Virus record (IMG/VR): IMGVR_UViG_3300008262_003982
Length of the DNA stretch: 64,000 nt
From: a virus
Taxonomy: Duplodnaviria > Heunggongvirae > Uroviricota > Caudoviricetes
Strand: one strand, 5' to 3'
The notes beneath the pieces are model-generated. The model searched no databases. It was given only the letters and a program-made list of their open reading frames with translations, and was not told the origin of the DNA. Below are positions 808 to 49,735 of this stretch, in pieces. Each line of letters begins with the position of its first letter. Position 1 is the first letter of the stretch. The position numbers and the translations under genes were made by a program.

Positions 808-2341
808 AATGATATACACTGATCTAATCAAACCAACTACCACAATCAACGAGCAACAGCTTGACGAAATTAGCCTGGACCAGGTTGGTCGAGGCATTGG
901 CGGCCTTGTCGGCGGCATTGGTAAAACAGCAGGCGCTGTGGCAGGTATTCCGCAAGGCCTGGGTCGAGCAATTAAAAAAGGTTATCGTGGATCAGTAAAA
1001 GGCATTGGTGGCGAAGATGATGCTGGCAGCACAGTGCCCGGCGCAGCCTATGGTGACACATCTGGCGCCAAGGCCGGCGGTAAAGCAGAAATGCCAATTG
1101 GATCTAATACGATTAATCCTCGTACCGGCAAGCCCTATGTGCCTAGTGATTTTTCTGGGCCGTCAGGTGGTAGTGCAACAGCAACACCTGCACCTGCTGC
1201 TTCTGGCGGTGGCGGTGGCGCAGCAGCCACACGAGATGCTGACACAGTCAAAACAGAACTGCGCAATTTAGATGCAGCCTACAAAACAAGACGCAATGCG
1301 CTAAACAAAGAACTTGAAGCACTGTCATCAACACCTGCTGGTGATGCTGGCACAGAACCTACTGCAGAACCCGCAACCGGTGCATTGGGATCAGCAATTG
1401 CAGGAACCCCAACTGGTGGCAAGCCTGAAACAGTCAGCATTGGTGGACAAAAGATTTCTCCAAGCGATCCGTTGTATGCCAAAATTGCCGCATCACAAGT
1501 GATGCAAAACAAACCTCTAGTGCAATCCATTCAAGCTCTTGACGCCAAGCAGTTGGAAATAGTCAAACAGATATTGTCTAAAAAGGCCGCTGGTGCATTG
1601 GAAGAACGTTTGCCTCCTACAGTCGCACCTGTGGTACCAAACAAAAGCAGAATGAGCCAAGCATACGACATGGGCAAACAAGCTCTAAAAACCACAGGTT
1701 CAGCAATTGCTGCAACACCACGTGCGCTTTCAACTGCTGCTGGTGCCACAAGAGGTGCATTCACTGGAATGTCACAAGCATACGCTAAAGGCAAACAAGC
1801 TGGTACCAAGTATGTAGGGCAAGGCGAATTGAGCTGGGACGATATACAAGTTGAATTGGCCAATCTGTCAGTAGAAGATGCCAAAGCATTGTTGAGTTTT
1901 GTAAATCAACTGGGAGTCACAGCAGCAGAGCCTGCTCCAGCACCAGCGCCAGCACCAGGAGCGACAGCACATGAACCAAGTGATGTTCAAATAGCTAATT
2001 TAGTTAGAGATGTTCAGAAAGGACCTGATGAAGTATTATCCAGATTTGCCGCAAGAACAGATTTACATCCAAAAATGAAAGCAGTTCTTGATGCTGAGAT
2101 AGCAAAAAGAGCTAGTAGACCACCCGCACCTGCTCCAGCAGACGCCTCTGGCTCAGGAGCAGCCGGCAAGGTTCCTGGATACACAGGTCGCAAGGTCAAA
2201 CTGCCTACAAAGCAAACAAAAACTCTGCCCACAAAGACTAAAAAGAAAAAACTAAGAGAGAAGATTGTTGCAGAAACTTTGACTTGGAGCAAAAACTTTG
2301 ATCCAAGCCGCCACCTAATCAAACAAATCCGTCGTACATAA
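797..2341 (+). CDS. hypothetical Ala/Gly/Pro/Thr-rich protein (possible virion structural/internal protein)
   Basis: 514 aa ORF with low-complexity PAPAPAP and GGGG stretches and a basic C-terminus. Confidence 0.45.
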   Translation: MNAKMIYTDLIKPTTTINEQQLDEISLDQVGRGIGGLVGGIGKTAGAVAGIPQGLGRAIKKGYRGSVKGIGGEDDAGSTVPGAAYGDTSGAKAGGKAEMPIGSNTINPRTGKPYVPSDFSGPSGGSATATPAPAASGGGGGAAATRDADTVKTELRNLDAAYKTRRNALNKELEALSSTPAGDAGTEPTAEPATGALGSAIAGTPTGGKPETVSIGGQKISPSDPLYAKIAASQVMQNKPLVQSIQALDAKQLEIVKQILSKKAAGALEERLPPTVAPVVPNKSRMSQAYDMGKQALKTTGSAIAATPRALSTAAGATRGAFTGMSQAYAKGKQAGTKYVGQGELSWDDIQVELANLSVEDAKALLSFVNQLGVTAAEPAPAPAPAPGATAHEPSDVQIANLVRDVQKGPDEVLSRFAARTDLHPKMKAVLDAEIAKRASRPPAPAPADASGSGAAGKVPGYTGRKVKLPTKQTKTLPTKTKKKKLREKIVAETLTWSKNFDPSRHLIKQIRRT

Positions 2342-2473
2342 GAACTCTGGCCTTAGGACCGAGTGGGCGGCTTCTGCCCGGGTCATTGGATTCGCTACCC
2401 AATGATCCAAAACGAGCAACCATACATTGACTTTCTTTAAATAAATCTATATACTATTGTTTTAGGAGGCTCT

Positions 2474-2734
2474 ATGAGCGGCAAAACATTTAACGGCGAG
2501 CAAAAACTCAAACTCACTCAGATCATCAACGAAGGCATGCAAGTCATGCACGAAATTGAAACTCTCAACGGCGGACTTACTGACACCATCAAGGCTGTGG
2601 CTGAAGAACTGGAAATCAAGCCTGCTGTACTTAAAAAAGCAATCAAGCTGGCACACAAAGCTGAATTTGGCAAAGCCAAACAGGATCACGAAACCCTGGA
2701 AACTATTTTAGAAACAGTTGGTAAAACTCTTTGA
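2474..2734 (+). CDS. hypothetical small protein
   Basis: 86 aa ORF. SD-like AGGAGG sits 7 nt upstream of the ATG, and a TTGACT-N17-TATACT promoter sits at 2427..2455. Confidence 0.5.
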   Translation: MSGKTFNGEQKLKLTQIINEGMQVMHEIETLNGGLTDTIKAVAEELEIKPAVLKKAIKLAHKAEFGKAKQDHETLETILETVGKTL

Positions 2735-3795
2735 GCTATCAAGTTTTTCAACACTGGGATCCATTACAGGTATGCGTGGTCGGTATGACGTACCCGCCGG
2801 ATTATTACTATTGGATCCAAGATCGCAACACACGCCAACGTTTCCAAACGTTGGCAGAAGAAACTGAACAAGATTATCAAGCCCTTATTGCACTATTGCA
2901 AAGCCGGTTCGGAATCCGTGTGTTGCGGCCTCAACTGCCTGAGGATCTCAGTGCTTTGAAAATTCATGATCATTGGGTGCCACCGCCTGTAACTCCAAGA
3001 GATTATTTCATCATGATTCATGATGAACTGTGGGTTCCGCAACAGCCAAACAGCTCACATGCTCAAAGAGCATACGCCAATCAAACTGAACTGACTTGGA
3101 CAGAATTTCAACATAGAGATCTTGCACAACATCGTGCTAAATTGAGTTGTTATCAAAACGTCGTTGAGCATGTGTTGTCACAAGGCAACACAGTACGACA
3201 TACAGATCTTGATGTAGTGTCAGGATGCTTTGTGAGTCGCATTGGTCAAGACTTGTATTTTGCCACTCAAAGTTATGATGAAGATCAAACACAACTGTTG
3301 GCCAAAGTCAATCAACTGTTCCCGCGCACACGCAATCGCATTGTGAATGCTGGCGGTCACGGAGATGCTACCTATTGCCCAGTTACTCCTGGATTGATCA
3401 TTAGCCTACGAGATGTGCCAACTTACGCAGACACTTTTCCTGGATGGGAAGTGGTGTACTTGCCACCAAGTGATTATGCAGACACTGCGGAATTTCGAGC
3501 CAGCATGAAGCACAATCGAGGCCGCTGGAACATTCCGGGCTTTGAATCAGATCCTAATCTTGTACACATGGTTGAACATTACTTTGAGTCTTGGGTAGGC
3601 AATGCTAGTGAAACTGTGTTTGATGTCAACATACTTGTGATAGATCAAAAGAACATTGTGGTATCCAGCCACAATGATCAAGTTGAAAAAGCCTGTGCTA
3701 GACACGGTATTGAAGTTCATGTGTCGCCGTTTAGGCATCGTTATTTTTGGGACGCTGGTATACACTGTATCACAAACGACTTGAGTCGAGCATGA
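2731..3795 (+). CDS. hypothetical protein
   Basis: 354 aa ORF whose start overlaps the upstream stop (ATGA). Confidence 0.5.
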   Translation: MSYQVFQHWDPLQVCVVGMTYPPDYYYWIQDRNTRQRFQTLAEETEQDYQALIALLQSRFGIRVLRPQLPEDLSALKIHDHWVPPPVTPRDYFIMIHDELWVPQQPNSSHAQRAYANQTELTWTEFQHRDLAQHRAKLSCYQNVVEHVLSQGNTVRHTDLDVVSGCFVSRIGQDLYFATQSYDEDQTQLLAKVNQLFPRTRNRIVNAGGHGDATYCPVTPGLIISLRDVPTYADTFPGWEVVYLPPSDYADTAEFRASMKHNRGRWNIPGFESDPNLVHMVEHYFESWVGNASETVFDVNILVIDQKNIVVSSHNDQVEKACARHGIEVHVSPFRHRYFWDAGIHCITNDLSRA

Positions 3796-44390: not shown

Positions 44391-44419
44391 TTGACAAGCC
44401 CAAAGAATAAATATATACT
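44391..44419 (+). promoter_or_regulatory. promoter TTGACA-N17-TATACT driving tmRNA precursor
   Basis: Sequence motif immediately upstream of the acceptor piece. Confidence 0.5.
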
Positions 44420-44455
44420 GCGAGTTATTGCTGTATGAAGCCGAGAGAAAAGTGT

Positions 44456-44490
44456 TCTGGACGGGGGTGCGAATCCCCCCAGGTCCACCA
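44456..44490 (+). ncRNA. ssrA: tmRNA acceptor piece 3' end (T-arm plus 3' acceptor strand plus CCA)
   Basis: T-stem GGGGG/CCCCC with loop TGCGAAT. CAGGTCC pairs with GGGCCTG at 44706, with one G·U. Discriminator A and an encoded CCA. Confidence 0.7.
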
Positions 44491-44705
44491 TAAGGAAGTT
44501 TAATGATAGGTTATGTTTTATTTTTGTTATTTTGGTTAGTGTTTGGTGTATTTTATTTTACACGTGATACCACATTGGACGAAGAGAAAATAAAAAACTG
44601 TGAGTTATGGTAATATGGAAAATTTAGCAAAATTTTTATTAATTGTTTTTCCAATATTATGCTTGTTGTTAACAACATTAAGCGTAGATTAAGTTTCTTT
44701 ATGAT

Positions 44706-44866
44706 GGGCCTGACCTAGATTCGACAGGGCAAAGAGTAACAGAGTGGACAGCACGGTAGGCGATGACCGTAAATCAAGCAAAACTTTTATCTGCAAATGA
44801 TGAAAAATTCTTGATGGCCGCTTAAGGTCGTCTAGGGTAGGAAATACCTCGTAACAGAAACCACCA
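44706..44866 (+). ncRNA. ssrA: tmRNA coding piece (5' acceptor strand, D-like GAUUCGAC, tag ORF)
   Basis: GGGCCUGACCUAGAUUCGACAGGG matches the tmRNA 5' consensus GGGGCUGAUUCUGGAUUCGACGGG. Tag frame GCA AAT GAT GAA AAA TTC TTG ATG GCC GCT TAA gives ANDEKFLMAA. Confidence 0.7.
44793..44825 (+). other. tmRNA tag-peptide reading frame (A)NDEKFLMAA-stop
   Basis: Resume codon GCA. The ...AA-stop ending is typical of SsrA degradation tags. Confidence 0.65.
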
Positions 44867-44894
44867 AAATGGCTGCGAAAGTAGCCATTTTCTT
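44867..44894 (+). terminator. rho-independent terminator
   Basis: AAAATGGCT-GCGAAAGT-AGCCATTTT hairpin followed by TTTCTTT. Confidence 0.6.
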
Positions 44895-44921
44895 TGACAT
44901 TCTCAGTGTTTGTGCTATATA
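44893..44921 (+). promoter_or_regulatory. promoter TTGACA-N17-(T)ATATAAT for porin gene
   Basis: Sequence motif. Confidence 0.5.
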
Positions 44922-44971: not shown

Positions 44972-45862
44972 ATGAAGAAAGTTCTAATTGCGTTGACCCT
45001 GGCAGTTGCTGGTGTTGCAAGCGCACAAGTTGGTATCTATGGTCGTGTTGGCACTTACCTTGACAACACCAAAACTGGTGCTTCCACCGTGCAAGGCATG
45101 GCCAATGACTTGAGTCACTTTGGCATTCGTGCTACTGAAAACTTAGGTGGCGGATTAACAGCTCGTGCCACATACGAGACCGGCATCCAAGCCAACAGCC
45201 CAGACACTGGTACTGACACTAGACTTGGCGATCGCCAAAGCACCGTGGGTATTGCTCACAAAATGGGTAGCGTTGATCTTGGTCGCAATGTTCACACTCA
45301 CTTCTTGGCCATCAGCGACAATGATCCATTTGGCACATTGATTGGTAGCTCAGCTGCCGACGTGCATAACCTGCGTGGTTTGCGTTTGAGCAATGCCGCT
45401 TTCACTTCTGTGAACTTTGGCAATGTCTCTGCTAACTTTGATCGTAGCACTGGTGCTGTTGGCACTGCCGCTGATCCTTATGCCGCATCCGTGATTGCCG
45501 CAGTTGGACCTGCTGTGTTGACTTATGCTCGTTACGAAGCTGGCGCAGAAACCAGTGACGTGTTGGCTGCTCGTGCTAAATTTGGTGCAACCACTGTGTT
45601 TGCCAGCGCAAGCGACAACAAAGGCGTTGCTGCCAACACCAACCGTGCTCAGTTGGTCGGCGTGGCACACAAACTTGGTGGACCAGTCACAGTGAAGGCC
45701 AGCTATGGTCGCATTGAAAATGGCATCAAGAGTTACAACGTAGGTGCTGAGTATGCTTTCAGCAAAAAGACCTATGCACAAGTTTTGTATCGTACAGTTG
45801 AGGGAACCTCAGCAGCCACTGATGTCAAACAAGTAGCAGGCGGGTTGGTCGTACAGTTCTAA
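44972..45862 (+). CDS. outer-membrane general porin (Gram-negative Porin_4-like beta-barrel)
   Basis: Signal peptide MKKVLIALTLAVAGVASA. AQVGIYGRVGTYLDN...ATENLGGGL matches the N-terminal strands of Neisseria/Burkholderia-type porins. C-terminal ...VVQF (terminal Phe). Confidence 0.7.
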   Translation: MKKVLIALTLAVAGVASAQVGIYGRVGTYLDNTKTGASTVQGMANDLSHFGIRATENLGGGLTARATYETGIQANSPDTGTDTRLGDRQSTVGIAHKMGSVDLGRNVHTHFLAISDNDPFGTLIGSSAADVHNLRGLRLSNAAFTSVNFGNVSANFDRSTGAVGTAADPYAASVIAAVGPAVLTYARYEAGAETSDVLAARAKFGATTVFASASDNKGVAANTNRAQLVGVAHKLGGPVTVKASYGRIENGIKSYNVGAEYAFSKKTYAQVLYRTVEGTSAATDVKQVAGGLVVQF

Positions 45863-45884
45863 AACAGAAGTAGTACAAACCAAA

Positions 45885-45913
45885 AAACCCGCCAAGTAGG
45901 CGGGTTTTTTTAT
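45885..45913 (+). terminator. rho-independent terminator
   Basis: AAACCCGCC-AAGTA-GGCGGGTTTTTTT. Confidence 0.8.
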
Positions 45914-45928
45914 GGCAGTAGACCAATA

Positions 45929-46070
45929 ATTGGATTGGTGCTATACTAGACACAAGTTAGAAAAACAGCGAAGTTTGTAAAGACCCTGCAACAAGGCGGG
46001 GCATTTACAAAACAAGTTGACCAGTAAAGCAGGAGATGCTATACTAGAGACTAGTTAGAAAACAAAGGCA
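45929..46070 (+). promoter_or_regulatory. tandem repeated promoter-like elements (...GGTGCTATACTAGACACAAGTTAGAAAAACA / TTGACC-N17-GATGCTATACTAGAGACTAGTTAGAAAACA)
   Basis: Two copies of about 30 nt starting GCTATACTAGA. Each is followed by a strong hairpin (46001..46038 and 46106..46140). Confidence 0.4.
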
Positions 46071-46380
46071 GTTGATCGAAACTACTTTGAAGTTCGTTAA
46101 AAATTTAATTTTGTATAGTGCCCCAGATTAAGTTCTGGGCACTATATGTAAACACATTAGGGTTACCTAGTCCGTTAGGGGTGAACAAAGGCTGATTCGA
46201 GCCGGATACCCATGAAGCAGGAGGGCCTAAGAGTAGCGCGAGACACCATCGAGCGTGAGGGATAAGGCTACACCAAACTCCAGGAAGGCGGCGGAACTAC
46301 TGGGCCTGTAATGAGGTCTTGATGCAAGTTGGTGATGCGTGTCAAGAACTTCCCTAATGTGTTTTCATATAGTGAACTAT

Positions 46381-46452
46381 GGAGCGTTCGTCTATCGGTT
46401 AGGACACAAGCCTTTCACGCCTGTAAGAGGGGTTCGATTCCCCTACGCTCTA
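46381..46452 (+). tRNA. tRNA-Glu (TTC)
   Basis: Acceptor GGAGCGT/ACGCTCT, anticodon loop cuUUCac (one mismatch in the anticodon stem), T-arm AGGGGTTCGATTCCCCT, CCA encoded. Confidence 0.6.
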
Positions 46453-46658
46453 CCAAATCCCGTTACTACTTTCGTTAAAGTAGCGTTTGATTAGCGATAG
46501 AGATCCGGTGGCAGAAGACCGTAAGCGTAAGGATGGAGACTACCCTTACAGACTCTGATAGGCAGAATCTCACTGCACACAGACTTTGAATAAATGAGAT
46601 GGACAGAGTAACTGCTCAATTAAGGGCTGGCGTGGAACCCAGTAGCTTATCCTAATTT

Positions 46659-46730
46659 GGTCTCAAGGTGTTCATGGACGCACACAGCACTGTCACTGCT
46701 GAGGAGGGGGATCGTTACCCCCTGGGACCG
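46659..46730 (+). tRNA. tRNA-Asp (GTC)
   Basis: Acceptor GGTCTCA/TGGGACC, anticodon stem CAGCA/TGCTG with loop cuGUCac. T-loop is the unusual ATCGTTA. CCA encoded. Confidence 0.6.
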
Positions 46731-46740
46731 CCAAGTTTAT

Positions 46741-46828
46741 GGACATGATGTGTCAATTACCTGAGGCTGGTATGAAACTTCGTAATAGCATACGAGGAAG
46801 AAGTGGGTTAGATTCCCATTGTTGTCCA
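46741..46828 (+). ncRNA. tRNA-like element (T-arm plus 3' acceptor plus CCA recognisable; non-canonical body)
   Basis: 3' end GTGGGTTAGATTCCCATTGTTGTCCACCA followed by the same AAGTTTATGG tail as tRNA-Asp. The 5' strand GGACATG pairs only 5 of 7. Confidence 0.3.
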
Positions 46829-46839
46829 CCAAGTTTATG

Positions 46840-46928
46840 GCGTCATAGGATGTAACGGAGTGTGGTTTGCTTCAACCTTGAATGATCATCAAGGTTTTCT
46901 TGCGTGGGTTCGAATCCCACATGATGCC
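46840..46928 (+). ncRNA. tRNA-like element (89 nt; acceptor GCGTCAT/ATGATGC and T-arm GTGGGTTCGAATCCCAC present; body contains 23-nt perfect palindrome)
   Basis: AACCTTGAATGATCATCAAGGTT palindrome at 46866..46888 where the anticodon arm should be. No clean D-arm. Confidence 0.3.
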
Positions 46929-47532
46929 TCAAGTTTGAAGCCACATCGCCTGGACACTTCCTCGCAAGAGCACTAGGTCCTGCAACCGTGGCTTCTCCCC
47001 GACGTTCCGCTTGGTTAGCGGATACTGTGACCCGCAGGATAAGAAGTGAGGTGACTCTCAAGGGTGGTAGTCTTCTTACCGAAAGGCCGTTAGCAACACG
47101 ATAGCGGTCCCTGTCGGGAAGCGGGTGGAAGGTGTGTGAGAATTGCGGGGCAACCCAAGAGATGATGCACTACAATTACCGCCGGGGGATGCAGAGCAAC
47201 TAATTTTCCTGATGCTGGGCAGGACAAGGCCCAGCAGTCCTATCCCAAGGATCACCTGAGCCAGAACTCAGGGCCGATGAGCATCGCAAGCCCTACCACG
47301 GGTGCCGATGGACGATAAATTGGGAAGCAGTAGTTAGCAGTGGGAGGATTTGATTTTCAAATCCGAACTTTTAGTTTTTATAGTCAAGCACCGATAAAGG
47401 TATCGTGTAAGGACGCTTACGCTATTCGGGTCCAACCGGCCGGGAACGGATCCTAATATAACTGCTATCGGCTATTGCACTCTTAGCGGAGGACGCATAA
47501 ATTGAGCATCTCTCGGTGCTTGACTATAGAAT

Positions 47533-48504
47533 CTATTCAATGTCAATTTGGCAAAAACTGTTTTTGCCGCCAAATCCAAAATTGGCCTTGAGTATGCGTT
47601 TGCCCGGAAACGGCACAGCATCTACGATGATCCTTGAATCTTTGACTATGAGATCACCAGCTAACACATTGGGTCTTAGGGTTTTTGCACGGTAATCGTC
47701 AAAACTCATGCACATTTCAATGGCGCCGCTGGCTGAGATACAGTGCCCTATGCGGCTTTTGTAGCTGACAATAGGTATGTCTTTGTGAACTAAAGAATTA
47801 AAAACATTGTACTCAAATTGATCTCCCACTGGAGTGCCTGTTGCATGTGCATTCCAAAAATCAATGGTGTCAAAATTGATGCCAGAAATATCTCTGGCCA
47901 ATTGGTGCGCATCACCTGGATTGGCTATGAGTGTGGGGTTGGTACGAAAGATATAATTGCTGATTGTGGCAAATGCACTCATGTTGAATTTTACACTTGG
48001 ATGTTTTATCAACATTGCAGCCATGCCTCTACCCATTCGAAATCCAGTACTGGTTGAGTCAAATGCTCTTCCTGAGGATTGATCCAATGCACCCATACTG
48101 GCAAATCGCCACATGTGAAGTTCGTCATCAACTAAATTATCAGCACAAAAAACAATCACTGGTAATTGGTGTTGCAAGCTCACCATGGATGCAGTGTACA
48201 AGGCATGCATGCTTCCACTGCATTCTGCTACCACATTCGTAACAAATCCGTTGAGATGCAATTTTGTTGCCACAAGACTGACCAAGGCGTCAATGGTACT
48301 GTTCCTAAGTTCAGTAGGACGTCCTCGTTTTTTATTGAGCTCAAAAAAGTCTCGGCTGGGTTTATTTGTTGGTATCAATCCTCCTTTGGAAGAAGTTACC
48401 ATTGGCCAGTGTGGCTGAACAATGTTTGCTAGACATGTGCTATCAACGAATTGTTCAATGTTCCAGTCGAGACTGTGGTGATAGGTTAAGATTTCAGTGA
48501 TCAT
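47533..48504 (-). CDS. beta-ketoacyl-(ACP) synthase-like condensing enzyme (KAS; thiolase fold)
   Basis: FWNAHATGTPVGD (the HGTGT-type His motif), C-terminal NFGFGGKNS (the GFGG motif), and a candidate active-site Cys in AECSGS. 323 aa, shorter than FabF. Confidence 0.65.
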   Translation of the reverse strand: MITEILTYHHSLDWNIEQFVDSTCLANIVQPHWPMVTSSKGGLIPTNKPSRDFFELNKKRGRPTELRNSTIDALVSLVATKLHLNGFVTNVVAECSGSMHALYTASMVSLQHQLPVIVFCADNLVDDELHMWRFASMGALDQSSGRAFDSTSTGFRMGRGMAAMLIKHPSVKFNMSAFATISNYIFRTNPTLIANPGDAHQLARDISGINFDTIDFWNAHATGTPVGDQFEYNVFNSLVHKDIPIVSYKSRIGHCISASGAIEMCMSFDDYRAKTLRPNVLAGDLIVKDSRIIVDAVPFPGKRILKANFGFGGKNSFCQIDIE

Positions 48505-48595
48505 GTGGGGTACTTATTTGCCCACTGTAACACGACTGCAGAAAACTGTTACAGACTATTTTGGATAGATAAACAACAAATTTATCCAAAACTGT

Positions 48596-48624
48596 TTGAC
48601 AACAAAAGACGTTTGTCTTACAAT
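48596..48624 (+). promoter_or_regulatory. promoter TTGACA-N17-TACAAT
   Basis: Sequence motif. Transcribes into the ORF-poor GC-rich region. Confidence 0.5.
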
Positions 48625-48625
48625 A

Positions 48626-49620
48626 GATACATAGGGCAGTTTATTGTCCTGTGCAGTATGGTTCGCCCAGCTGTACGAAGAATAACTGGGGTGACCCAGC
48701 CAAAGGATGTATGCCTACATAAGTCCGCCAGCAATGGTTCATGTAAACAAGCCTGCTCAGGTCCGTGAGGATCCGATCACTGATAAGACCGGTGGTTGTA
48801 ACAATGACGCTGGGAGTATAGGAAAGAGCTGTAACTTACCGGCCCGCAAGGGTAACCGGAGTTGCAGAAAAGTAACAGGTGGTGCTGACTTCTATACAAA
48901 ACCAGCCCAGTTAATTGGTATGAGAAAGGGTAGCGTATCGGTCCGAGGGGTTGCACCCAAGGGCTCGTATGCAGTTTGAGTGGTTGGTGGAGGTACGCGA
49001 AAGCCGAGACCCGACACTGATCGCAAAAGACGTCTGAGTAGTTCGCAAGACAAAAGGAACGTGGTGTGTTGTATTTTGTATTCCAAAAGAGTATGAAGCA
49101 ACTGAGTCAGCACATCGCAGTAGGTTGATATAGCTCATCGTAGAGCAATTCCCTGTTAAGGAATAGGCTGTGGCTTCAAAACCACTATCTAACATAAAAG
49201 CAAAGACTGACTCGGTCATGTGTGAAAAGTATCTAATGCTGTAGCCGCAAGGCAATACAGTCAGACGTAACTCGCAAGGTGAAATCTGTTTATACTGGAA
49301 GTTTCGTAACTGTTTAGCGACAGTGAATGGCTCTAAAGGTCAACGGGATAGATGGTGTAGAGTAGCATGTGATGACAAGACTACTGCCTGTCTTTAAAAA
49401 CGGCGATACTGGTAACAGACTGTGATACATAGCAATATGGTTGCAGTGGAAATCGGAAGAAAGCAGACTCGCAAGGTTTGTAATAATGTCCGAGGTGTTA
49501 CTGGGTTAGGATGTATTCTCAGTCCGCCACTTTATATACAAACGCACTCCGTACCCGTTGGTGGTTGCTCAATTCAATGAATTGTTCCCCAAGCATAGAG
49601 TGTGTTTCTATATAAATAAT
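48626..49620 (+). ncRNA. candidate large structured ncRNA (about 1 kb, GNRA tetraloop-rich)
   Basis: Sits downstream of the promoter at 48596. No credible ORF. Repeated cGCAAg/cGAAAg hairpins: CCCGCAAGGG, GCGAAAGC, GCCGCAAGGC and CTCGCAAGG, the last occurring twice. Confidence 0.4.
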
Positions 49621-49624
49621 TCAA

Positions 49625-49696
49625 TCGCGGGGTACGTCAGCGGTAGACCACCAGGCTCATAACCTGGGAGACGGAGGTTCGATTCCTTCCCCCGCA
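49625..49696 (+). tRNA. tRNA-fMet (initiator-like, CAT)
   Basis: C1·A72 mismatch (CGCGGGG/CCCCGCA), which is typical of bacterial initiators. Anticodon arm CCAGG-cuCAUaa-CCTGG. CCA encoded. Confidence 0.7.
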
Positions 49697-49735
49697 ACCA
49701 ATTCAGCCGAAAGGCTAAATAACTTTAACACAGTG

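What the first reader, a model, noticed from the sequence alone, without database searches (positions are those of the whole stretch)
46456..47530. About 1.1 kb ORF-free, GC-rich, hairpin-dense region inside the tRNA island: candidate large ornate ncRNA
There is no plausible ORF, GC is clearly above the flanks, and local stem-loops are numerous, many capped by GNRA tetraloops (CTCGCAAGAG, CCGAAAGG and CGGGAAGCG). The region is framed by tRNAs. Large structured phage RNAs of the GOLLD and ROOL classes typically sit next to tRNA arrays. The region also carries tRNA-like units that share an identical CCAAGTTTATGG tail.
Basis: seen in the sequence. Interest (0 to 1): 0.75.

Follow-up and report, generated by a model that had tools for sequence, protein, structure and literature searches.

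The report
Cluster of small structured phage RNAs
The flagged 1.1-kb gene-free stretch is not one giant RNA but a row of at least four separate, conserved, folded small RNAs (plus one tRNA and two degenerate tRNA look-alikes) packed into a phage tRNA gene cluster; none matches a catalogued RNA family and what they do is unknown.

Summary
The stretch is ORF-free and lies on the sense strand of a phage tRNA island, but it is not a single GOLLD/ROOL-type RNA. A true GOLLD lies 1.5 kb downstream (49061-49525). The flagged region is a mosaic: module a (46451-46662), tRNA-Asp (46659-46733), two sub-threshold tRNA-like units (46742-46830, 46839-46930), a small hairpin element, module e (47002-47199), module f (47208-47368) and module g (47371-47532). 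Each module recurs on its own in other viral contigs (profile hits in fetched loci: e 132, g 88, f 53, a 46), usually filling the gap between two same-strand tRNAs, next to varying tRNAs and in varying order. The e-f-g juxtaposition was seen only here. Covariation is strong for e (28 of 43 pairs compensatory), f (22 of 40) and g (30 of 39), with pseudoknot candidates in e (several compensatory changes) and f (one, from PHB04). It is weak for a. G·U pairs far outnumber A·C, so the structures belong to the tRNA-sense RNA. Rfam 15 has no match. There is no similarity to T4 RNA C/D. The most likely mechanism is co-transcription with the tRNAs and release by tRNA-processing enzymes and RNase III. 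Function is unknown.

The parts
45919..46045 (+). Two sigma70-like promoter matches (45919-45947 TAGACC-17-TATACT; 46017-46045 TTGACC-17-TATACT). They lie within a ~37-nt direct repeat and are the likely start of the RNA operon.
   Evidence: Consensus scan. Direct repeat D1 at 45939-45975 / 46037-46073, 81% identical. No + strand terminator-like site between 46000 and 47540. Inferred, not shown.
46140..46374 (+). Element A: a ~235-nt structured RNA closed by a 23-bp stem. It lies outside the flagged coordinates but in the same ORF-free unit.
   Evidence: Inverted repeat I1, 96% complementary. Its 20-mer is in 19 IMG/VR contigs. 72 predicted pairs, 21 with compensatory change, 97% canonical. 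G·U 96 vs A·C 6.
46381..46455 (+). tRNA-Glu(TTC)
   Evidence: ARAGORN. Rfam tRNA 53.8 bits.
46451..46662 (+). Module a: a ~200-nt conserved RNA filling the gap between tRNA-Glu and tRNA-Asp.
   Evidence: nhmmer profile hit at 46451-46662, E 5e-74. Motif found in 15 IMG/VR contigs; profile hits in 46 fetched loci. A variable-length hairpin but only 5 of 42 pairs compensatory, so structure is weakly supported. MFE z +0.25.
46659..46733 (+). tRNA-Asp(GTC), with encoded CCA followed by AGTTTATGG
   Evidence: ARAGORN. Rfam tRNA 36.2 bits, threshold 29. blastn to tRNA regions of other phages.
46742..46830 (+). tRNA-like unit c: GGGTTAGATTCCC T-arm and CCA + AGTTTATGG tail, otherwise non-canonical.
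   Evidence: Not called by ARAGORN at default settings or by Rfam tRNA. Appears only at a 50-60% ARAGORN threshold. T-arm repeat D2 and tail repeat D3. A unit with the same GGTTAGATTCC T-loop lies 315 nt upstream of module f in phage PHB04.
46839..46930 (+). tRNA-like unit d: perfect 7-bp acceptor stem and GTGGGTTCGAATCCCAC T-arm, aberrant D and anticodon regions.
   Evidence: Rfam tRNA 20 bits, below the threshold of 29. ARAGORN calls it only at relaxed thresholds, as a Leu(CAA)-like unit with a long arm. One homolog after tRNA-Asp in L020.
46937..46995 (+). Small stem-loop element (8-bp closing stem GAAGCCAC/GTGGCTTC, inner CTC-GCAA-GAG hairpin). No homolog found.
   Evidence: Read from the sequence and the MFE fold. 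No nhmmer hit upstream of 46998. Status uncertain.
47002..47199 (+). Module e: a ~200-nt pseudoknotted RNA, the most widespread family here.
   Evidence: Profile hits in 132 fetched loci. On alignment A3, 96.9% of cells paired, 28 of 43 pairs compensatory, 0/500 shuffles reach the observed value, slid controls 40-52%. Pseudoknot between the GACCC loop and GGGU.
47208..47368 (+). Module f: a ~155-nt multi-helix RNA beginning CCUGAUG, with long invariant junctions and a variable terminal hairpin.
   Evidence: CM R1 176.8 bits; exactly one copy per locus in 52 loci. On alignment A2, 98.2% paired, 22 of 40 pairs compensatory, 0/500 shuffles. Present in Bordetella phage PHB04. G·U 121 vs A·C 1.
47371..47532 (+). 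Module g: a ~160-nt RNA whose 5' and 3' ends form an 18-23-bp stem (candidate RNase III site) enclosing several hairpins.
   Evidence: Inverted repeat I2. MFE z -5.53. Motif in 60 IMG/VR contigs. 39 pairs, 30 compensatory, 94.8% canonical. The closing stem covaries in sequence.

Best explanation
The ORF-free stretch 45863-47532 is a non-coding RNA operon within a phage tRNA island.

Its contents, in order on the + strand, are:
- element A
- tRNA-Glu
- module a
- tRNA-Asp
- two degenerate tRNA-like units
- a small hairpin
- modules e, f and g

Modules a, e, f and g (and element A) are separate genes. Each encodes a compact small RNA of about 155-235 nt, and each belongs to its own family that recurs in many other phage genomes.

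Inferred mechanism: the whole unit is transcribed from sigma70-like promoters at about 45.9-46.05 kb, as one precursor together with the tRNAs. The modules are set free by the host machinery that trims tRNAs. RNase P would cut at the 5' end of the next tRNA, and 3'-end processing of the preceding tRNA would define the other end. This is tRNA punctuation. RNase III would cut the long terminal duplexes of A and g.

The released RNAs fold into pseudoknotted structures whose strongly conserved junction nucleotides presumably bind a conserved partner or form an active site.

Shown: modularity, conservation, strand and base-pair covariation. Inferred: co-transcription, the processing enzymes, stability and trans action. 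Biological role: unknown.
For: Modularity:
- blastn and nhmmer map a, e, f and g to different, non-adjacent places in other contigs.
- In many loci module f exactly fills a ~160-nt gap between two same-strand tRNAs. Examples are L016 positions 424/586, L008 10720/10884 and L002 196/355.
- Over 241 loci the ordered neighbours within 60 nt are mostly tRNAs. Counts: tRNA->e 74, g->tRNA 66, e->tRNA 45, tRNA->g 38, tRNA->a 34, a->tRNA 28, tRNA->f 15, f->tRNA 12.
- Module-to-module neighbours are rarer: e->g 12, f->g 3 and e->f 1, the last being the window only.
- Flanking tRNA identities vary, and median gaps are 0-7 nt.

Structure:
- f: 98.2% paired, 22 of 40 pairs compensatory, 0/500 shuffles, slid controls 20-45%.
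- e: 96.9% paired, 28 of 43 compensatory.
- g: 30 of 39 compensatory.
- A: 21 of 72 compensatory.

Strand:
- G·U vs A·C cells are f 121/1, e 146/18, g 69/14, A 96/6, a 34/1.
- All 287 module copies with a tRNA within 300 nt share its strand.

One copy per locus for f.

Promoter-like sites lie upstream and there is no + strand terminator inside the unit.

Precedent: T4 rnaD and rnaC abut tRNA-Arg in the T4 tRNA cluster. They are small RNAs of unknown role (PMC3014915).
Against: - There are no transcript data, so co-transcription, processing sites, stability and trans action are all inferred.
- Module a has little covariation (5 of 42 pairs) and an unremarkable folding energy.
- Homologs were retrieved by exact motifs, so invariance of those motif columns is partly by construction. 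One exception: all full-length loci found with the GACGATAAATTGGGAAGC motif alone also carry TCCTATCCCAAGGATCAC.
- Related sequences inflate shuffle statistics.
- f also occurs in contigs with no tRNA nearby, followed by small ORFs. tRNA punctuation therefore cannot be the only maturation route.
- e and g are directly adjacent in 12 loci. A composite e+g RNA in some phages is not excluded.
Confidence: 0.8

Rival explanations
1. The region encodes one large ornate RNA of about 1 kb, of the GOLLD/ROOL kind.
For: ORF-free, sense-strand, next to tRNAs, no internal terminator-like site. e, f and g are contiguous here, and e-g adjacency recurs in 12 loci. A GOLLD can carry an embedded tRNA, as the one at 49124-49194 does.
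Against: No GOLLD, ROOL or HEARO hit at E<=10. A genuine tRNA-Asp and two tRNA-like units interrupt the region. Every module occurs alone between tRNAs elsewhere, and the window's combination is unique among 241 loci. No long-range pairing between modules is conserved: the a/g complementarity I4 is absent from homologs (read).
Confidence: 0.04
2. The modules are cis-acting elements rather than stand-alone RNAs. They could be riboswitch-like leaders or processing and spacer signals that control maturation or expression of neighbouring tRNAs or genes.
For: They abut tRNAs with 0-7 nt gaps. In tRNA-free contexts f sits 24-70 nt upstream of an ORF with a ribosome-binding site, as in L012, L015 and L028.
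Against: Downstream genes of f are unrelated to each other: an HNH_3/NUMOD4 endonuclease, several small orphan ORFs, or a tRNA. Flanking tRNA identities vary widely. Sizes of 155-235 nt with pseudoknots and tens of invariant unpaired bases exceed what a spacer needs.
Confidence: 0.08
3. One or more modules are ribozymes. They could be self-cleaving elements or a phage-encoded catalyst acting on the tRNA precursors.
For: Near-invariant junction sequences, multi-helix junctions and pseudoknots resemble catalytic cores. The position inside tRNA precursors fits. f contains CUGAUG/CCGAUGAG strings that recall the hammerhead core (read).
Against: No Rfam ribozyme model (hammerhead, HDV-like, twister, pistol, hatchet, RNase P) hits at E<=10. 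The hammerhead core is not met: C replaces U4, there is no GAAA strand, and A94 varies to C in some copies. There are no biochemical data.
Confidence: 0.07
4. The elements act at the DNA level. They could be MITE-like mobile elements with terminal inverted repeats (A, g), homing-endonuclease targets, or decayed tRNA pseudogenes.
For: A and g have 23-nt terminal inverted repeats and turn up at different positions in different genomes. Homing endonuclease genes are frequent neighbours. Units c and d are clearly tRNA-derived.
Against: The terminal stems covary in sequence rather than conserving a transposase site. G·U pairs outnumber A·C by 5- to 120-fold, which only makes sense for RNA of one strand. 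f is single-copy per locus in 52 loci. Strand identity with tRNAs is 287/287. a, e, f and g give no tRNA-model hit.
Confidence: 0.02

Closest known systems
Bacteriophage T4 RNA C (species 1) and RNA D (species 2), small stable RNAs of the T4 tRNA gene cluster
   Same: They are 119-139 nt non-tRNA RNAs encoded on the tRNA strand and directly abut a tRNA (rnaD starts 2 nt after tRNA-Arg). They are transcribed from the tRNA region and their roles are still unknown (PMC3014915).
   Different: No sequence or structure similarity. The CM for f scores at most 7.4 bits in the T4 region and not on rnaC/rnaD. Profiles for e, g and a give no hit. The present families are larger in number (five in one operon) and are found in metagenomic phages and Bordetella phage PHB04, not in T4-like phages.
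GOLLD RNA (Rfam RF02032)
   Same: It is a structured phage RNA of unknown function next to tRNAs. One is present in the same window.
   Different: GOLLD is a single RNA of about 800 nt (own knowledge; the Rfam model covers 416 positions). The flagged region gives no GOLLD hit and consists of independent 155-210-nt modules.
tRNA punctuation of polycistronic transcripts (mitochondrial model) and bacterial tRNA/rRNA operon processing by RNase P, RNase E/Z and RNase III
   Same: Non-tRNA RNAs are bounded by tRNAs at 0-7 nt, so tRNA-end processing would define their ends. Long terminal duplexes, as in pre-rRNA, flank A and g.
   Different: This comparison rests on established knowledge, not on a test here. 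f also exists without flanking tRNAs.
Anonymous candidate structured RNAs from IMG/VR (DNAVirus_N; Fremin et al. 2023, PMC10690425)
   Same: Same data source (IMG/VR intergenic regions) and same kind of evidence (covariation). Some of those 8,495 candidates may correspond to parts of these modules.
   Different: Those candidates are 29-151 nt long (mean 67) and were not described as tRNA-island cassettes. The supplementary models are not held, so overlap could not be checked.

Membership tests
GOLLD RNA (RF02032) | Match to the Rfam covariance model at or above the gathering score (150 bits) | tested here: not met
   No hit in 46456-47530 even at E<=10. The model does match 49061-49525 at 204 bits, which is a different locus.
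ROOL, HEARO, group I and group II introns, RNase P RNA, known self-cleaving ribozymes (Rfam 15) | Match to the family covariance model | tested here: not met
   cmscan of 45700-49700 at E<=10 lists only tRNA hits and chance-level hits in the region. The same is true over homologs in six other loci.
tRNA | Cloverleaf detected by ARAGORN and/or Rfam RF00005 at >=29 bits | tested here: met
   Met for 46659-46733 only: tRNA-Asp GTC, 36.2 bits.
tRNA (units c 46742-46830 and d 46839-46930) | Cloverleaf detected by ARAGORN and/or Rfam RF00005 at >=29 bits | tested here: not met
   d scores 20 bits and c gives no hit. ARAGORN calls them only at 50-80% thresholds, with aberrant arms.
T4 RNA C / RNA D | Sequence or structure homology to T4 rnaC/rnaD | tested here: not met
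   CM R1 with filters off, and nhmmer profiles of e, g, a and f, find nothing on T4 70908-71171.
T4 RNA C / RNA D | Non-tRNA small RNA gene directly abutting tRNAs on the same strand in a phage tRNA cluster | tested here: met
   Median gaps are 0-7 nt and strand agreement is 287/287. The T4 layout is shown.
Riboswitch / cis-regulatory leader | Consistent position upstream of one class of genes | tested here: not met
   Downstream neighbours of f are tRNAs, an HNH endonuclease or unrelated small ORFs.
Hammerhead ribozyme | Conserved core CUGANGA ... GAAA around three stems | tested here: not met
   f has CCUGAUG and CCGAUGAG but lacks the GAAA strand. It has C at the U4 position, and A94 varies (alignment). 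There is no Rfam hit.
Stable, processed trans-acting RNA | A discrete transcript with defined ends accumulates during infection | not testable with these tools
   No transcriptome data are available.

The most novel reading that the evidence does not exclude
A, a, e, f and g are five previously undescribed classes of phage RNA that travel together in tRNA islands (the order A-tRNA-tRNA-e-g is shared by L060 and the window) and act as a functional set. They could form an RNA-only or RNA-protein machine, or include ribozymes, acting on tRNA or translation, or neutralising host tRNA-targeting defences. On this reading, the long near-invariant junction stretches of f (about 18 nt each) and the conserved junction motifs of e mark an active site or a binding site for a universal host component.
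Probability: 0.2. Interest if true: 0.85.

Novelty: new variant of a known kind. Interest (0 to 1): 0.62.

Why it matters
Phage tRNA islands are usually annotated as tRNAs plus empty spacers. Here the spacers hold at least four or five conserved, pseudoknotted RNA families. They are spread over dozens to more than a hundred viral contigs, including contigs of 300-500 kb, and none is in Rfam 15.

They are modern counterparts of T4 RNA C and D, whose roles remain unknown decades after their discovery (PMC3014915).

One family (f) occurs in a cultured phage, Bordetella phage PHB04. That makes the question directly testable by knock-out, Northern blot, structure probing and pull-down.

Strongly conserved junctions and pseudoknots are typical of ribozymes, ligand binders or specific RNP scaffolds, so any of these RNAs could reveal a new way in which phages manipulate translation, RNA processing or defence. 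For annotation, the result also shows that a long ORF-free, structured stretch next to tRNAs should not be read as a GOLLD/ROOL-type giant RNA by default.

Tried and rejected
- Rfam 15 at gathering scores over the whole window and at E<=10 over 45700-49700 gave only tRNAs in the region. The same held for PHB04 and six other loci.
- blastn against 50,697 phage records found only tRNA matches plus a 95-nt match to PHB04. That match led to module f.
- Megablast of 13 kb of the window against phages found no match.
- blastn of 46936-47535 against all complete E. coli genomes found no match.
- A scan of 185,579 species genomes with the f pattern gave one hit, in a Bacilli MAG.
- Homology to T4 rnaC/rnaD was rejected.
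- The hammerhead reading of CUGAUG/CCGAUGAG in f was rejected.
- The riboswitch reading of f was rejected because downstream genes are heterogeneous.
- A search for a conserved protein partner within 3 kb of f found only clade-specific small ORFs and homing endonucleases. The GIY-YIG assignment is by eye only.
- The complementarity between modules a and g (repeat I4) is not conserved in homologs and was treated as chance.
- Pairing of the invariant strand UUGGG(A) in f has three possible partners (CCUGA, UCCCAA, CCGAU). They cannot be told apart because nothing varies. The A-to-U change just 5' of it disfavours the CCGAU option.
- Literature searches found no description of these RNAs.
- The one relevant catalogue (PMC10690425) could not be checked because its supplements are not held.
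Full report
**1. What is at the coordinates**

The window carries a phage-type RNA island. ARAGORN finds 28 tRNAs and a two-piece tmRNA, all on the + strand, between 43.4 and 55.9 kb. The flagged 46456-47530 lies in a stretch without any ORF over 72 aa. That stretch really extends from 45863, the end of a porin-like ORF, to 47532, the end of a ketoacyl-synthase-like ORF on the minus strand.

GC is only moderately raised. It is 0.51-0.56 over 46800-47400 and 0.46-0.49 elsewhere in the region. Immediate flanks are 0.39-0.44, and the upstream ORF is 0.51-0.54.

A Rfam 15 scan finds a genuine GOLLD RNA in the window, but at 49061-49525 (204 bits), not in the flagged region. At E<=10 the flagged region gives only tRNA-model hits: tRNA-Asp at 46659-46730 (36.2 bits) and a sub-threshold 20-bit hit at 46840-46928.

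**2. The region is a mosaic**

blastn against cultured phages gave one non-tRNA hit: 95 nt (47234-47328) at 81% identity to an un-annotated stretch of Bordetella phage PHB04. There it also follows tRNAs and a two-piece tmRNA.

Two motifs shared with PHB04 were used to scan IMG/VR, and they retrieved 50 viral contigs. Only about 155 nt are conserved among them (window 47208-47368, module f). Sequence on either side is unrelated.

In many contigs f exactly fills a ~160-nt gap between two same-strand tRNAs. nhmmer with the remaining pieces of the window showed that each piece has homologs at other, separate places in these islands:
- 46456-46658 (module a)
- about 47000-47199 (module e)
- about 47370-47533 (module g)
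- 46109-46376 (element A, just upstream of the flagged region)

Motif scans of IMG/VR gave these counts:
- g: 60 contigs
- A: 19 contigs
- a: 15 contigs

Profile searches over all 241 fetched loci that contain any family gave e in 132, g in 88, f in 53, a in 46 and A in 23. These numbers are biased by how the loci were fetched.

The ordered neighbours within 60 nt are overwhelmingly tRNAs:
- tRNA->e 74
- g->tRNA 66
- e->tRNA 45
- tRNA->g 38
- tRNA->a 34
- a->tRNA 28
- tRNA->f 15
- f->tRNA 12

Module-to-module neighbours are rarer: e->g 12, f->g 3 and e->f once, in the window only. The identity of the flanking tRNA varies, and median gaps are 0-7 nt. This is the main argument against a single 1.1-kb RNA.

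**3. Are the modules structured RNAs?**

Single-sequence folding is not decisive. Z-scores are a +0.25, e -0.79, f -2.37 and g -5.53. Comparative evidence is decisive for three of the four.

Module f (30 distinct copies, alignment A2):
- 98.2% of cells are paired.
- 22 of 40 pairs carry compensatory changes.
- 0 of 500 shuffles reach the observed values, and slid controls are 20-45% paired.
- The helices are a 5' hairpin, a second hairpin with a C-N-N-G-A-A loop, a two-part hairpin and a terminal hairpin of variable length.
- A pseudoknot between the ACCAC loop and GUGG is supported by one compensatory change, in PHB04 (GCAC/GUGC).

Module e (29 non-redundant copies, alignment A3):
- 96.9% of cells are paired.
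- 28 of 43 pairs are compensatory, and 0 of 500 shuffles reach the observed values.
- It includes a pseudoknot between the GACCC loop and GGGU.
- Matching double changes appear in several lineages: GACAC/GUGU in the alignment, and GAUCC/GGAU, CGUCC/GGAC and GGUCC/GGACC by eye.

Module g (27 non-redundant copies):
- 39 pairs, of which 30 are compensatory.
- An 18-23-bp stem formed by the two ends changes sequence but keeps pairing.

Module a is too conserved to test. Only 5 of 42 pairs are compensatory, although one hairpin varies in length.

Element A has 72 predicted pairs, 21 of them compensatory.

G·U cells far outnumber A·C cells: f 121/1, e 146/18, g 69/14, A 96/6, a 34/1. All 287 copies with a tRNA within 300 nt lie on that tRNA's strand. 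The structures therefore belong to RNA of the tRNA-sense strand, not to DNA or to the opposite strand.

Caveats:
- Homologs were fetched by exact motifs, so invariance of those columns is partly circular. However, the full-length loci found with the 3' motif of f alone all carry the 5' motif unchanged.
- Related sequences inflate shuffle statistics. The slid controls and the multiple pair types per column argue against an artefact.

**4. The rest of the region**

46659-46733 is a real tRNA-Asp. Units c (46742-46830) and d (46839-46930) have good T-arms and acceptor-like stems but fail default tRNA detection. They look like degenerate or non-canonical tRNAs.

The shared CCAAGTTTATGG tail is the encoded CCA plus a repeated trailer. 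46937-46995 is a small stem-loop element with no homolog found.

**5. How it probably works**

Sigma70-like promoter matches lie at 45919-45947 and 46017-46045, upstream of element A. No + strand terminator-like site occurs before the convergent ORF at 47533. Element A is never directly preceded by a tRNA, which fits a position first in the unit.

I infer one precursor carrying A, tRNA-Glu, a, tRNA-Asp, c, d, e, f and g. The modules would be released by tRNA-end processing (RNase P at the next tRNA's 5' end, 3'-end trimming of the previous one). RNase III would cut the long terminal duplexes of A and g. None of this is shown, because no transcript data exist.

f also occurs in contigs without nearby tRNAs, flanked by small hairpins and followed by unrelated small ORFs or an HNH_3/NUMOD4 homing endonuclease. 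This argues against a riboswitch for one gene class. It also shows that tRNA punctuation is not the only context.

No conserved protein neighbour was found. f was not found in 185,579 species-representative bacterial and archaeal genomes; the single pattern hit is rejected by the CM. Nothing matches E. coli. Function remains open.

**6. Comparison with what is known**

The closest analogues are T4 RNA C and RNA D. These are small RNAs abutting tRNA-Arg in the T4 tRNA cluster, and their roles are unknown (PMC3014915). The context is the same, but there is no homology.

GOLLD shares the neighbourhood but not the architecture.

A 2023 catalogue of 8,495 anonymous candidate structured RNAs from IMG/VR, 29-151 nt long (PMC10690425), may contain fragments of these families. 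Its files are not held, so this could not be checked. No other description was found in five literature searches.

**7. Verdict**

The region is a cluster of independent, conserved, structured small RNA genes in a phage tRNA island. At least three of them (e, f, g) have strong covariation support, and e has a covariation-supported pseudoknot. None is in Rfam 15.

I rate this a new variant of a known kind: orphan small RNAs of phage tRNA clusters. Interest is moderate to high, because the families are widespread, intricately structured and experimentally accessible through phage PHB04, while their function is entirely unknown.

Noticed in passing
window 49061-49525 (+), probably starting near 48630: A genuine GOLLD RNA (RF02032, 204 bits). 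It carries an embedded tRNA-like insert at 49124-49194 (Rfam tRNA 50.6 bits, not called by ARAGORN). A strong sigma70-like promoter match (TTGACA-17-TACAAT) lies at 48596-48624.
   Followed up: partly
window 46140-46374 (+): Element A is a ~235-nt RNA closed by a 23-bp stem, just upstream of the flagged region. It forms its own family (19 IMG/VR contigs, 21 of 72 predicted pairs compensatory). It is never directly preceded by a tRNA and is probably the first gene of the RNA operon.
   Followed up: partly
window 44398-44916 (+): A two-piece (permuted) tmRNA with tag peptide ANDEKFLMAA (tmRNA_permuted 115 bits, alpha_tmRNA 57 bits). Relatives L020 and PHB04 carry beta-type two-piece tmRNAs, which suggests proteobacterial hosts.
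   Followed up: no
window 44972-45862 (+) and 47533-48504 (-): The phage carries a Gram-negative porin-like ORF (Porin_4, 90 bits). It also carries a 323-aa ORF matching only parts of the beta-ketoacyl synthase N- and C-terminal domains. Both are unusual cargo flanking the RNA operon.
   Followed up: no
L001 (Bordetella phage PHB04, MF663786) 913-3620: About 2.7 kb is almost un-annotated in GenBank. It holds three tRNAs, a two-piece tmRNA (L001 1898-2269), a tRNA-like unit (2578-2662), an unexplained GC-rich ~310 nt (2663-2975) and module f (2977-3130). PHB04 has f but not e, g or a.
   Followed up: partly
L028, L029, L036, L039, L042, L046, L047, L049 (ORF starting ~25-30 nt after module f); homolog further downstream in L050: An HNH_3 + NUMOD4 homing-endonuclease ORF sits right after module f in one clade. 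By eye, the neighbourhoods also hold GIY-YIG-like ORFs. This recalls segB inside the T4 tRNA cluster.
   Followed up: partly
L060 and window: The order of RNA genes is conserved: A - tRNA - tRNA - e - g in L060, against A - tRNA-Glu - a - tRNA-Asp - c - d - e - f - g in the window. Four loci have two e copies adjacent (within 60 nt). This hints that the families are inherited as a cassette.
   Followed up: partly
window 47250-47256 (module f): The invariant heptamer GGAUCAC equals the start of the 16S rRNA 3' tail GGAUCACCUCCUUA (own knowledge). The following bases vary and form a stem, so the match is probably chance.
   Followed up: no
window 45882-45910: A perfect 12-bp GC-rich hairpin flanked by A-runs and T-runs (AAAAAACCCGCC ... 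GGCGGGTTTTTT). It is a likely bidirectional terminator ending the porin-like gene just before the RNA operon's promoters.
   Followed up: no
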